A stretch of 64,000 nt of DNA from Escherichia coli (GTDB lineage Bacteria > Pseudomonadota > Gammaproteobacteria > Enterobacterales > Enterobacteriaceae). Each line of letters starts with the position of its first letter. Position 1 is the stretch's first letter. A program made the position numbers. The DNA lies in assembly GCF_003334785.1 (NCBI RefSeq), contig NZ_QOWV01000002.1. One strand, written 5' to 3'. This document shows, piece by piece, positions 27,801-30,800 of this stretch.

Positions 27801-30800
27801 ATTGGTCATGTGCGTTACCCCACGGCTGGCAGCTCCAGCGCCTCTGAAGCGCAGCCGTTTTACGTTAACTCCCCGTATGGCATTACGCTTGCCCACAACG
27901 GCAATCTGACCAACGCTCACGAGTTGCGTAAAAAACTGTTTGAAGAAAAACGCCGCCACATCAACACCACTTCCGACTCGGAAATTCTGCTTAATATCTT
28001 CGCCAGCGAGCTGGACAACTTCCGCCACTACCCGCTGGAAGCCGACAATATTTTCGCTGCCATTGCTGCCACAAACCGCTTAATCCGCGGCGCGTATGCC
28101 TGTGTGGCGATGATTATCGGCCACGGTATGGTTGCTTTCCGCGATCCAAACGGGATTCGTCCGCTGGTACTGGGAAAACGTGATATTGACGAGAACCGTA
28201 CAGAATATATGGTCGCTTCCGAAAGCGTAGCGCTCGATACGCTGGGCTTTGATTTCCTGCGTGACGTCGCGCCGGGCGAAGCGATTTACATCACTGAAGA
28301 AGGGCAGTTGTTTACCCGTCAATGTGCTGACAATCCGGTCAGCAATCCGTGCCTGTTTGAGTATGTATACTTTGCCCGCCCGGACTCGTTTATCGACAAA
28401 ATTTCCGTTTACAGCGCGCGTGTGAATATGGGCACGAAACTGGGCGAGAAAATTGCCCGCGAATGGGAAGATCTGGATATCGACGTGGTGATCCCGATCC
28501 CAGAAACCTCGTGTGATATCGCGCTGGAAATTGCTCGTATTCTGGGCAAACCGTACCGCCAGGGCTTCGTTAAAAACCGCTATGTTGGCCGCACCTTTAT
28601 CATGCCGGGCCAGCAGCTGCGTCGTAAGTCCGTGCGCCGTAAACTGAATGCCAACCGCGCCGAGTTCCGCGATAAAAACGTCCTGCTGGTCGACGACTCC
28701 ATCGTCCGTGGCACCACTTCTGAGCAGATTATCGAGATGGCACGCGAAGCCGGAGCGAAGAAAGTGTACCTCGCTTCTGCGGCACCGGAAATTCGCTTCC
28801 CGAACGTTTATGGTATTGATATGCCGAGCGCCACGGAACTGATCGCTCACGGTCGCGAAGTTGATGAAATTCGCCAGATCATCGGTGCTGACGGGTTGAT
28901 TTTCCAGGATCTGAACGATCTGATCGACGCCGTTCGCGCTGAAAATCCGGATATCCAGCAGTTTGAATGCTCGGTGTTCAACGGCGTCTACGTCACCAAA
29001 GATGTTGATCAGGGCTACCTCGATTTCCTCGATACGTTACGTAATGATGACGCCAAAGCAGTGCAACGTCAGAACGAAGTGGAAAATCTCGAAATGCATA
29101 ACGAAGGATGATGCCTTCGCTGAGGGTGCCGGTCTGGCACCCTGACTTGCAACTCCCGCCGAAATCCTGCAAAGTCTGCCTGCAAGTCTGACAGGGCAAC
29201 TATTTATGAAACGACTCATTGTAGGCATCAGCGGTGCCAGCGGCGCGATTTATGGCGTGCGCTTATTACAGGTTCTGCGCGATGTCACAGATATCGAAAC
29301 GCATCTGGTGATGAGCCAGGCAGCGCGCCAGACCTTATCCCTCGAAACGGATTTTTCTCTGCGCGAAGTGCAGGCATTAGCCGATGTCACGCACGATGCG
29401 CGCGATATTGCCGCCAGCATCTCTTCCGGTTCTTTCCAGACGCTGGGGATGGTGATTTTACCCTGTTCAATCAAAACCCTTTCCGGCATTGTCCATAGCT
29501 ATACTGATGGCTTACTGACCCGTGCGGCAGATGTGGTGCTGAAAGAGCGTCGCCCGTTGGTGCTCTGCGTGCGTGAAACACCATTGCACTTAGGCCATCT
29601 GCGTTTAATGACTCAGGCGGCAGAAATCGGTGCGGTGATTATGCCTCCCGTTCCGGCGTTTTATCATCGCCCGCAATCCCTTGATGATGTGATAAATCAG
29701 ACGGTTAATCGTGTTCTTGACCAGTTTGCGATAACCCTTCCTGAAGATCTCTTTGCCCGCTGGCAGGGCGCATAACTCCGCTGTTGCCCTGTTTCAGGGC
29801 AATTTTGCAACCGCGATCAAATCCTCGACATTTTGTTTCTGCCATTCAATCGAAACGCTGCGATTCAACCGCTATACCTGCTATCTTCAACTTCAGGACA
29901 ATAATGCAACGTCTTATTAACATATTTAACGTTGAATGTTACTGTTGTCGTCAAGATGGCATAAGACCTGCATGAAAGAGCCTGCAAACACACAACACAA
30001 TACACAACATAAAAAAGCCATTTTCACTTGAGGGTTATGTATGAAGAAGTCGATTCTCGCTCTGTCTTTGTTAGTCGGTCTCTCCACAGCGGCTTCCAGC
30101 TATGCGGCGCTACCGGAGACGGTACGTATCGGAACCGATACCACCTACGCACCGTTCTCATCGAAAGATGCTAAAGGTGATTTTGTTGGCTTTGATATCG
30201 ATCTCGGTAACGAGATGTGCAAACGGATGCAGGTGAAATGTACCTGGGTTGCCAGTGACTTTGACGCGCTGATCCCCTCACTGAAAGCGAAAAAAATCGA
30301 CGCTATTATTTCGTCGCTTTCCATTACCGATAAACGTCAGCAGGAGATTGCCTTCTCCGACAAGCTGTACGCCGCAGATTCTCGTTTGATTGCGGCCAAA
30401 GGTTCACCGATTCAGCCAACGCTGGATTCACTGAAAGGTAAACATGTTGGTGTGCTGCAGGGATCAACCCAGGAAGCTTACGCTAACGAGACCTGGCGTA
30501 GTAAAGGCGTGGATGTGGTGGCCTATGCCAACCAGGATTTGGTCTATTCCGATCTGGCTGCAGGACGTCTGGATGCTGCGTTACAAGATGAAGTTGCTGC
30601 CAGCGAAGGATTCCTCAAGCAACCTGCTGGTAAAGATTTCGCCTTTGCTGGCTCATCAGTAAAAGACAAAAAATACTTCGGTGATGGCACCGGTGTAGGG
30701 CTACGTAAAGATGATGCTGAACTGACGGCTGCCTTCAATAAGGCGCTTGGCGAGCTGCGTCAGGACGGCACCTACGACAAGATGGCGAAAAAGTATTTCG

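What the first reader, a model, noticed from the sequence alone, without database searches (positions are those of the whole stretch)
29124..29200. Structured spacer between purF and ubiX: perfect hairpin plus tandem 12-13 bp direct repeat
A 7-bp perfect stem (GGGTGCC-GGTCT-GGCACCC) without U-tract lies 13 nt after the purF stop, followed by a tandem repeat CCTGCAAAGTCTG / CCTGCAAGTCTG directly before the ubiX start. This could modulate read-through, processing or ubiX translation relative to purF.
Basis: seen in the sequence. Interest (0 to 1): 0.2.

Follow-up and report, generated by a model that had tools for sequence, protein, structure and literature searches.

The report
purF end hairpin plus ubiX promoter
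The 94-base gap between the E. coli genes purF and ubiX holds a terminator-like RNA hairpin where purF messages end, followed by a weak but strongly conserved internal promoter for ubiX, which is an ordinary arrangement.

Summary
The window is E. coli, and the spacer is identical to K-12 MG1655. Both observed features are real.

- **Hairpin.** It is a perfect 8-bp stem (29123-29143), and 10 bp in most other E. coli. A GC-rich hairpin sits at this position in all 71 Enterobacteriaceae purF-ubiX spacers examined. The stem sequences differ and show compensatory changes. Only some genera follow it with a U-tract.
- **purF 3' end.** Published Term-seq places the 'primary' purF mRNA 3' end at window 29147, 2-4 nt after the stem.
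- **"Tandem repeat".** It is not an RNA structure.
  - Copy 1 carries the -10 element (CAAAGT, 29170-75) of an internal promoter. The -35 (TTGCAA, 29147-52) lies exactly 17 nt upstream.
  - A published transcription start site (TSS; low read count) maps to G29182, which is the fourth base of copy 2.
  - The -35/17-nt/-10 arrangement is kept in 77 of 81 loci, including 7 where purF is not the upstream gene.
  - Copy 2 is conserved only in Escherichia and adds no length to the spacer.

**Verdict:** this is a terminator-derived 3'-end hairpin abutting a weak internal ubiX promoter. Both ends appear in high-throughput tables, but no paper found here discusses them. Interest is low. Two points remain open: whether the 3' end forms by leaky termination or by trimming, and whether copy 2 has any function.

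The parts
29109..29111 (+). purF stop codon (TGA)
   Evidence: ORF 27594-29111. It is annotated purF in E. coli genomes.
29121..29145 (+). GC-rich stem-loop at the end of purF. 5' arm 29123-29130 AGGGTGCC, loop 29131-29135 GGTCT, 3' arm 29136-29143 GGCACCCT. T29121/A29145 can add a pair, and C at 29122 in most other E. coli makes a 10-bp stem.
   Evidence: (I3). A hairpin is present in 71/71 related spacers with different stem sequences. The helix shows 94.8% pairing, 4 of 8 pairs have compensatory changes, and slid controls give about 45%.
29147..29147 (+). Mapped 'primary' 3' end of purF mRNA (MG1655 2428685, minus strand)
   Evidence: Adams et al. Term-seq supplement, two entries. Coordinate mapping was checked.
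29147..29152 (+). -35 element TTGCAA of the internal ubiX promoter
   Evidence: 99% column conservation. Present in 77/81 loci exactly 17 nt upstream of the -10.
29160..29165 (+). CGAAAT within the promoter spacer. It aligns with TAAAAT/TATAAT in other genera, which may be a second overlapping -10 there. It is degenerate in E. coli.
   Evidence: Alignment and spacer sequences.
29166..29178 (+). Repeat copy 1, CCTGCAAAGTCTG. It contains the -10 and part of the discriminator.
   Evidence: 87% conserved across the family.
29170..29175 (+). -10 element CAAAGT (A at -11 and T at -7 are present)
   Evidence: 93% conservation. Spacing is 17 nt from the -35 and 6 nt to the mapped TSS.
29179..29190 (+). 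Repeat copy 2, CCTGCAAGTCTG. It spans -3 to +9 of the internal transcript.
   Evidence: Only 49% conserved; found in Escherichia and in a related form in the C. amalonaticus/sedlakii group.
29182..29182 (+). Published transcription start site for ubiX (24-nt 5' UTR; 8 reads)
   Evidence: Kim et al. 2012 supplement: TSS 2426672 in old coordinates, with upstream sequence ending ...AAAGTCTGCCTG. Mapping checked.
29193..29196 (+). Likely ubiX Shine-Dalgarno sequence, AGGG, 9 nt before the ATG
   Evidence: 83% conserved. Position inferred from the sequence.
29206..29775 (+). ubiX coding sequence (flavin prenyltransferase)
29784..29807 (+). ubiX/operon terminator: stem TTGCCCTG / CAGGGCAA with loop TTT, followed by ATTTTG (context)
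   Evidence: Conserved downstream of ubiX in related loci.

Best explanation
The spacer is two abutting transcription signals.

**1. A terminator-derived stem-loop directly after purF.**
- It defines the 3' end of the cvpA-purF message.
- In E. coli it has lost the U-tract. It therefore most likely acts as a leaky terminator, as a block to 3'->5' exonucleases, or both, and leaves a stable purF 3' end 2-4 nt after the stem.
- Some RNA polymerase reads through into ubiX.

**2. A weak sigma70-type promoter starting at the base of the hairpin.**
- Its geometry is -35 TTGCAA, 17 nt, -10 CAAAGT, 6 nt, +1 G29182.
- It gives ubiX a short 24-nt leader and a basal expression route independent of the PurR-controlled cvpA promoter.

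**3. The 'tandem repeat'.**
- Copy 1 is the -10/discriminator.
- Copy 2 is the first transcribed bases.
- The resemblance of copy 2 to copy 1 is lineage-specific and probably has no function of its own.

**Shown versus inferred.**
- Shown: the sequence features, their conservation and covariation, and the published 3' end and TSS positions.
- Inferred: how the 3' end forms, the strength of the promoter, and its physiological role.
For: **Hairpin.**
- It is a perfect 8-bp stem.
- A hairpin of 8-14 bp ends 0-8 nt before the invariant TTGCAA in 71/71 purF-ubiX spacers, with many different stems and shuffle z-scores mostly between -2.4 and -5.
- 94.8% of cells pair, and 26 cells carry double changes against 8.7 in shuffles. 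Slid controls give about 45% paired.
- Trabulsiella and several other genera keep a U-rich tail running into TTGCAA. Klebsiella and Raoultella carry a canonical terminator in the same spacer.
- The Term-seq 'primary' purF 3' end is at MG1655 2428685, which is window 29147.

**Promoter.**
- A published TSS lies at window G29182 with ideal -35/-10/+1 geometry.
- TTGCNN-17 nt-CA..GT is kept in 77/81 loci with invariant spacing. This includes 7 of 10 loci where a different gene precedes ubiX.
- Column conservation is 0.99 for the -35 and 0.93 for the -10, against 0.20 for the hairpin loop and 0.34-0.57 for the hairpin arms and flanks.

**Read-through.** In vitro run-off array ratios are similar for cvpA, purF and ubiX.

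**Repeat.** The distance from the -10 to the ATG is 30 nt in Escherichia, as in Citrobacter and Klebsiella. Copy 2 is therefore not an insertion.
Against: - The TSS rests on 8 reads in one dataset. It was not found in the held portions of other TSS supplements.
- Dar & Sorek kept ubiX-purF-cvpA among operons without a notable internal TSS, intrinsic terminator or strong Rho termination. They did not list it as differentially decaying. Both signals must therefore be weak in exponentially growing cultures of the kind they used.
- The hexamers match consensus at only 7 of 12 positions, and the simple promoter scan misses the site.
- No U-tract is present, so termination efficiency may be negligible.
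- The mechanism that forms the 3' end was not determined.
- No expression data separating ubiX from purF were examined.
Confidence: 0.7

Rival explanations
1. The hairpin is simply a leaky Rho-independent terminator that attenuates transcription into ubiX. The mapped 3' end is a true termination point, and stabilisation or processing plays no part.
For: - The GC-rich stem lies directly after a stop codon.
- Orthologous spacers in Trabulsiella have a stem followed by TTTTCTTG. Klebsiella and Raoultella have canonical terminators.
- A 3' end is mapped in vivo.
Against: - E. coli has only 2 U in the 8 nt after the stem, and the site fails the terminator scan.
- The 3' end lies 2-4 nt after the stem rather than the usual 7-9, which looks more like a trimmed end.
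- Dar & Sorek did not exclude the operon for an internal intrinsic-terminator motif.
- In vitro run-off signal is similar across the three genes.
Confidence: 0.3
2. RNA structure in the read-through transcript masks the ubiX ribosome-binding site and tunes ubiX translation relative to purF. The proposed pairings are the hairpin tail CCCUGACUUGCA with UGCAAGUC...AGGG, or a local GCCUG/CAGGC hairpin.
For: - GACTTGCA (29144-51) is a perfect complement of TGCAAGTC (29181-88) (I5).
- The Citrobacter freundii group has an 11-nt complement, CCCTTGCTTGC / GCAAGCAAGGG.
- Family-wide predicted SD accessibility is 0.16 in long transcripts, 0.46 in short ones and 0.25 with shuffled upstream sequence.
Against: - In E. 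coli itself the long and short transcripts differ little (0.42 against 0.35).
- Only 45 of 71 sequences fall below their shuffle mean, and the sequences are not independent.
- TTGCAA is a palindrome, so complementarity to TGCAA in the -10 region is automatic.
- L014 and L067 keep the repeat but lack the complementary GAC.
Confidence: 0.1
3. The two direct repeats (AAGTCTG, 12 bp apart, at about -9..-3 and +4..+10) form an operator for an unidentified DNA-binding regulator. Alternatively, the second copy is a -10-like element that causes sigma70-dependent promoter-proximal pausing.
For: - The repeat is statistically unusual.
- The C. amalonaticus/sedlakii group has AAGTCAG(CC) twice at the same 12-nt offset, with the T/A difference present in both copies.
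- Trabulsiella L050 repeats ATTGTC, and Leclercia L036 repeats ACAGT.
Against: - Copy 2 is only 49% conserved.
- Most genera have no repeat.
- Copy 2 lacks either the -11 A or the -7 T of a -10 element.
- No known factor motif was recognised, and there are no binding data.
- Alignment shows a gradient of point substitutions rather than a discrete event.
Confidence: 0.08
4. The features have no function: a chance palindrome and a chance repeat in a neutral spacer.
For: - Each feature alone is modest. TRF score 43 is below the usual cut-off of 50, and the fold z-score is -2.0.
- Copy 2 is poorly conserved.
Against: - Hairpin structure is conserved with compensatory changes in 71/71 spacers.
- A mapped 3' end lies at its base.
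- The -35 and -10 are near-invariant, and a mapped TSS matches their geometry.
Confidence: 0.03

Closest known systems
Rho-independent (intrinsic) transcription terminators
   Same: - A GC-rich stem with a short loop lies immediately after a stop codon.
- An RNA 3' end maps at its base.
- Orthologous spacers in Klebsiella, Raoultella and Trabulsiella have full versions with U-tracts.
   Different: - The E. coli version has no U-tract (tail GACUUGCA).
- The 3' end is only 2-4 nt past the stem.
- Read-through into ubiX is evidently substantial.
Intercistronic protective stem-loops / mRNA decay barriers (malE-malF, the puf operon, and the hairpins described by Dar & Sorek 2018, PMC5927463)
   Same: A stable hairpin ends an upstream cistron inside an operon, and the Term-seq 3' end lies immediately downstream of it.
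   Different: - The cvpA-purF-ubiX operon was analysed in that study but not reported as differentially decaying.
- It is not a REP element. It is single-copy, with one place per genome.
Internal (intra-operonic) sigma70 promoters
   Same: - The -35 TTGCAA, 17-nt spacer and -10 CAAAGT are present, and the TSS is 7 nt after the -10.
- The promoter sits just upstream of the distal gene and travels with that gene when the upstream neighbour changes.
   Different: - Both hexamers are weak (7 of 12 consensus positions) yet almost invariant across a bacterial family.
- The -35 overlaps the tail of the upstream hairpin, and in some genera its 3' arm.
sigma54 promoters (TGGCAC-N5-TTGCA), such as the argT promoter in this window
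   Same: E. coli reads TGGCAC CCTGAC TTGCA across the hairpin's 3' arm and the -35. Both sigma54 elements are present in sequence.
   Different: - The GG-to-GC spacing is one base longer than in the consensus and in the argT promoter.
- TGGCAC is not conserved outside Escherichia.
- Genomic SELEX for RpoN lists the sites flanking the operon but none here.
- The mapped TSS is 20 nt too far downstream.

Membership tests
Intrinsic terminator | GC-rich stem of at least 5 bp with a 3-8 nt loop | tested here: met
   The stem is 8 bp perfect with 6 G-C pairs and a 5-nt loop. Hairpin segment energy is -16.5 kcal/mol.
Intrinsic terminator | U-rich tract immediately 3' of the stem | tested here: not met
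   The tail is GACTTGCA/CTTGCAAC, with 2 T in 8 nt. The terminator scan does not list it. The feature is met in K. michiganensis and partly met in Trabulsiella and other genera.
Intrinsic terminator | RNA 3' end at the site in vivo | tested here: met
   A Term-seq 'primary' purF 3' end lies at window 29147. It sits 2-4 nt after the stem rather than 7-9.
Intrinsic terminator | Factor-independent release in vitro | not testable with these tools
   The only indirect evidence is the similar in vitro run-off array signal for cvpA, purF and ubiX, which suggests read-through.
Protective intercistronic stem-loop (decay barrier) | Stable hairpin with a mapped 3' end immediately downstream | tested here: met
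Protective intercistronic stem-loop (decay barrier) | Upstream segment more stable or more abundant than the downstream segment | tested here: inconclusive
   The operon is in Dar & Sorek's analysed set (S2) but absent from the held text of their other supplementary tables, including the differential-decay list. Term-seq reports a purF 3' end but no ubiX 3' end, which hints at lower ubiX abundance.
REP/BIME repetitive extragenic palindromes | Many dispersed copies per genome with the REP consensus | tested here: not met
   There is one place per genome in 5426 genomes for the 321-nt region. No REP-like sequence is seen.
sigma70 promoter | -35-like and -10-like hexamers 16-18 nt apart, with A at -11 and T at -7 | tested here: met
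   The arrangement is TTGCAA, 17 nt, CAAAGT. The match is 7 of 12, below the threshold of the scan.
sigma70 promoter | Primary transcript 5' end 5-9 nt downstream of the -10 | tested here: met
   A published TSS lies at G29182, the 7th nt after the -10. It has only 8 reads in a single dataset.
sigma70 promoter | Activity depends on the hexamers (mutational test) | not testable with these tools
   This needs reporter assays. Conservation of 0.99 and 0.93 is indirect support.
sigma54 promoter | GG and GC elements at the exact -24/-12 spacing | tested here: not met
   The spacing is one nt longer than in the consensus and in the argT promoter of the same window. It is absent from the RpoN SELEX list.
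Described RNA families (riboswitches, leaders, sRNAs; Rfam 15) | Covariance-model match | tested here: not met
   Only chance-level hits were found (E >= 3.3, far below gathering scores).

The most novel reading that the evidence does not exclude
The unit 'hairpin, TTGYAAC, 7-8 nt, AWATCCT' occurs exactly twice in the 64-kb window: once on each side of ubiX, at 29147 and 29805. Both copies are conserved across Enterobacteriaceae.

This could mean that the two flanks share an unrecognised regulator-binding site or promoter type that coordinates ubiX with its neighbours. It could instead be the scar of an ancient insertion of ubiX into a purF-argT spacer.

Together with the lineage-specific copying of the -10 core into the early transcribed region, it could reflect a control mechanism at this promoter that has not been described, such as an operator or a sigma-dependent pause.
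Probability: 0.08. Interest if true: 0.45.

Novelty: new member of a known kind. Interest (0 to 1): 0.15.

Why it matters
- It explains how ubiX, a ubiquinone-cofactor gene, can sit at the end of a PurR-repressed purine operon without depending wholly on it. The purF message mostly ends at a hairpin, and ubiX has its own weak, highly conserved start signal.
- It is a clean comparative example of a terminator and a promoter fused so tightly that the U-tract position is occupied by the -35 element. The terminator half ranges from canonical (Klebsiella, Trabulsiella) to U-less (Escherichia, Citrobacter, Enterobacter).
- It improves annotation of the cvpA-purF-ubiX unit.
- It does not open a new question.

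Tried and rejected
- **Known RNA family.** The Rfam scan of 28600-29700 gave only chance hits.
- **sigma54 promoter (TGGCAC...TTGCA).**
  - The spacing is one nt too long.
  - TGGCAC is not conserved outside Escherichia.
  - The site is absent from the RpoN SELEX list.
  - The mapped TSS does not fit.
- **PurR operator.** The published PurR box lies only upstream of cvpA. GCAAAGTCTGC lacks the central CG of a PurR box.
- **Small ORF.** A 27-codon ORF starts at the ATG overlapping the purF stop (29108-29191). Its length ranges from 3 to 65 codons and its frame is not conserved.
- **SD masking by upstream RNA.** The trend is weak family-wide and absent in E. coli.
- **Pairing of the hairpin tail with the repeats.** This is explained by the palindromic TTGCAA and is broken in L014 and L067.
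- **REP or dispersed repeat.** The region is single-copy.
- **12-nt slippage duplication.** The distance from the -10 to the ATG is the same (30 nt) in genera without the repeat.
- **Searches that gave nothing.**
  - The SMRT-Cappable-seq and Cappable-seq supplements had no hit.
  - Three papers had no supplement held as text.
  - Thomason 2015 is not held.
  - No K. pneumoniae ubiX TSS appears in the held text.
  - No TSS appears at the second TTGCAAC module.
  - No paper discusses a ubiX promoter or dedF.
  - The protein homology search returned only close relatives, so taxa outside Enterobacteriaceae and Salmonella's purF-ubiX junction were not examined.
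Full report
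**Where this is.** ORFs and BLAST show that the window is E. coli dedD-cvpA-purF-ubiX-argT-hisJ. Window 29090-29230 is identical to K-12 MG1655. The mapping is MG1655 coordinate = 2,457,832 minus window coordinate, on the minus strand. The purF stop is at 29109-29111 and the ubiX ATG at 29206, which leaves a 94-nt spacer. The region is single-copy and present in all 5426 complete E. coli genomes.

**Checking the observation.**
It is one pair longer than reported: AGGGTGCC (29123-30) / GGCACCCT (29136-43), loop GGTCT.
- Most other E. coli carry C at 29122, which gives a 10-bp stem.
- No U-tract follows, and the terminator scan does not list the site.
- The repeat CCTGCAAAGTCTG / CCTGCAAGTCTG (29166-29190) is real (TRF score 43). 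It is the best of only two tandem repeats scoring 40 or more in the 64 kb.
- Perfect 8-bp hairpins are about four times more frequent in the window than in shuffles, 24 against 5.5. One hairpin alone is therefore not remarkable, and the weight comes from comparison with other genomes.

**Comparative evidence.** Eighty Enterobacteriaceae loci were fetched with UbiX. Seventy of them have purF directly upstream.
- *Hairpin.*
  - With the window's own spacer, all 71 spacers have a GC-rich hairpin of 8-14 bp soon after the purF stop. It ends 0-8 nt before an invariant TTGCAA.
  - The stem sequences differ widely: AGGGTGCC, CAAGGGCGC, GTGAGGGC, CGCCCTCTC, GCGCCCCTC, GCGCGTTCTGT and others.
  - In a 17-sequence alignment of Escherichia, Citrobacter, Enterobacter and close relatives, the 8-pair helix is 94.8% paired.
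  - Four of its pairs show compensatory changes. That is 26 cells against 8.7 in shuffles, and none of 500 shuffles reached the observed value.
  - Sliding the partner by 1-3 columns drops pairing to about 45%.
  - What is conserved is the structure, not the sequence.
- *Tail of the hairpin.* This varies by genus.
  - Trabulsiella has TTTTCTTGCAAC, a proper U-tract running into TTGCAA.
  - Several genera have 4-5 T in 8 nt.
  - Klebsiella and Raoultella carry an additional canonical terminator (14-bp stem plus T-run).
  - Escherichia, Citrobacter and Enterobacter have lost the U-tract because the stem abuts or overlaps the TTGCAA.
  - This reads as an intrinsic terminator fused to what follows, with variable decay of its U-tract.
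- *Downstream blocks.*
  - Two blocks are nearly invariant: TTGCAA (99% column conservation) and CA(A/C)AGT (93%). They are always exactly 17 nt apart.
  - The arrangement is found in 77 of 81 sequences.
  - It persists in 7 of the 10 loci where ubiX is preceded by a different gene, either a LacI-type regulator or a membrane protein.
  - The block therefore belongs to ubiX, not to purF.
  - By contrast, the hairpin loop is 20% conserved, and the second repeat copy 49%.

**Experimental anchors from the literature.**
- *3' end.*
  - The Term-seq supplement of Adams et al. (bioRxiv 10.1101/2020.07.18.207399) lists a 'primary' purF 3' end at 2428685(-) in two entries. This is window 29147, giving ...GGCACCCUGACU-3', 2-4 nt after the stem.
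  - No ubiX 3' end is listed in that supplement.
- *TSS.*
  - Kim et al. 2012 (PMC3415461) list a TSS for ubiX 24 nt upstream of the ATG. The upstream sequence ends ...CCTGCAAAGTCTGCCTG. This is window G29182.
  - The geometry is textbook: -35 TTGCAA at 29147-52, a 17-nt spacer, -10 CAAAGT at 29170-75 (with A at -11 and T at -7), 6 nt, then +1.
  - Read support is low (8 reads).
- *Limits on strength.*
  - Dar & Sorek (PMC5927463) kept ubiX-purF-cvpA among 390 operons without a notable internal TSS, intrinsic-terminator motif or strong Rho termination. They did not list it as differentially decaying.
  - An in vitro run-off array gave similar values for cvpA, purF and ubiX.
  - Both signals are therefore weak in E. 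coli, and read-through is real.

**What the tandem repeat is.**
- Copy 1 (87% conserved) is the -10 element plus part of the discriminator. Copy 2 runs from -3 to +9 of the internal transcript.
- Copy 2 is not an inserted duplication. The distance from the -10 to the ATG is 30 nt in Escherichia, just as in Citrobacter and Klebsiella. Aligned sequences show a gradient of substitutions from GAAGCAAGAAA to GAAGTCAGACA to CAAGTCTGACA.
- A related repeat, AAGTCAG(CC) twice at the same 12-nt offset, exists in the C. amalonaticus/sedlakii group. Short copies of the local -10 core also occur downstream in Trabulsiella L050 and Leclercia L036.
- This is curious. It is compatible with an operator or a sigma-dependent pause element, but it is unsupported by any data and absent from most genera.

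**Ideas tested and dropped.**
- *RNA families.* There is no Rfam family match.
- *sigma54.*
  - The E. coli sequence TGGCAC-N6-TTGCA resembles a sigma54 promoter, but its spacing is one base longer than the genuine argT promoter in the same window.
  - It is not conserved and is missing from RpoN SELEX.
- *Small ORF.* The 27-codon ORF overlapping the purF stop is not conserved.
- *SD masking.*
  - Family-wide accessibility is 0.16 in long transcripts, 0.46 in short ones and 0.25 with shuffled upstream sequence.
  - In E. coli the values are 0.42 and 0.35, so there is no effect.
- *8-bp complementarity.* GACTTGCA / TGCAAGTC largely follows from TTGCAA being a palindrome that also occurs in the -10 region.

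**Interpretation.**
- The spacer is a terminator-derived 3'-end hairpin for purF fused to a weak internal ubiX promoter.
- The most likely working is that part of the cvpA-purF transcripts end at the hairpin, by leaky termination or by trimming back to it. The rest read through.
- The internal promoter supplies a low level of ubiX transcription that does not depend on the PurR-controlled promoter.
- How the 3' end forms and how much each route contributes were not determined here.
- No paper in the searchable library discusses this spacer or a ubiX promoter. The two ends exist only as rows in supplementary tables.

**Verdict.** The repeat is reinterpreted as promoter plus start site. This is a new, well-supported member of known kinds of element, of low general interest.

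Noticed in passing
window 29784-29840: After the ubiX terminator hairpin (TTGCCCTG/CAGGGCAA) lies a block, ATTTTG(C/T)AACCGCGATCA(A/T)ATCCTC(G/A)ACATTT, that is strongly conserved across the 80 loci. The composite TTGYAAC-N7-8-AWATCCT occurs only twice in the 64-kb window, at 29147 and 29805. Both copies sit just after a hairpin, one on each side of ubiX. Shuffles give 0.007 matches, but the pattern was defined post hoc. No TSS is listed there in the held Kim 2012 text.
   Followed up: partly
window 29098: Kim et al. 2012 list a second weak TSS for ubiX (10 reads, 108-nt leader) inside the last codons of purF. The upstream -10 candidates (GAAAAT, CGAAAT) are poorly spaced, so it may be noise or a processed end.
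   Followed up: no
window 30007 (MG1655 2427825, minus strand): The Term-seq table shows a very abundant 'orphan' 3' end (score about 576,000) in the argT leader. It lies about 35 nt downstream of the sigma54 promoter TGGCATAAGACCTGCA (29957-29972), at the end of a CA-rich run and just before AUAAAAAAG. This could be a short leader transcript or an attenuation product.
   Followed up: no
L025, L052, L056, L059, L080 (LacI-type gene upstream); L028, L031, L076 (membrane-protein gene upstream); L048, L072: In these genomes ubiX is not preceded by purF. In five of them the LacI-type gene runs into the conserved promoter block, and its stop codon TAA lies inside the ATAATCC motif. The Salmonella arizonae locus (L076) lacks the TTGCAA -35.
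   Followed up: partly
L001 (E. coli B27, NZ_AP027424.1): This is the only one of 5426 genomes below 90% identity here. From the second repeat copy onward the sequence is scrambled with many small indels, most of ubiX is missing, and no ubiX is annotated. It looks like an assembly error or a degraded locus.
   Followed up: partly
window 29122: The K-12-type allele has G where four of five other sampled E. coli have C. This introduces a G-G mismatch that shortens the stem from 10 to 8 bp. Hairpin segment energy is -16.5 kcal/mol, against -17.5 to -20.9 in six related Escherichia genomes.
   Followed up: partly
L042, L047, L057, L069, L070, L077, L084 (Klebsiella/Raoultella), spacers 134-143 nt: These spacers carry an extra canonical terminator (for example GAGAGCCCGCGG...CCGCGGGCTTTT TTATTTT) upstream of the ancestral hairpin. 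They also have a perfect TATAAT, preceded by TG in Raoultella, inside the 17-nt spacer of the conserved promoter. This suggests a stronger or second ubiX promoter there.
   Followed up: partly
window 29108-29191: A 27-codon ORF starts at the ATG that overlaps the purF stop (ATGA) and spans most of the spacer. It is not conserved in length or frame in other genera. The old CFT073 annotation had an extra hypothetical gene, c2854, in this operon.
   Followed up: yes
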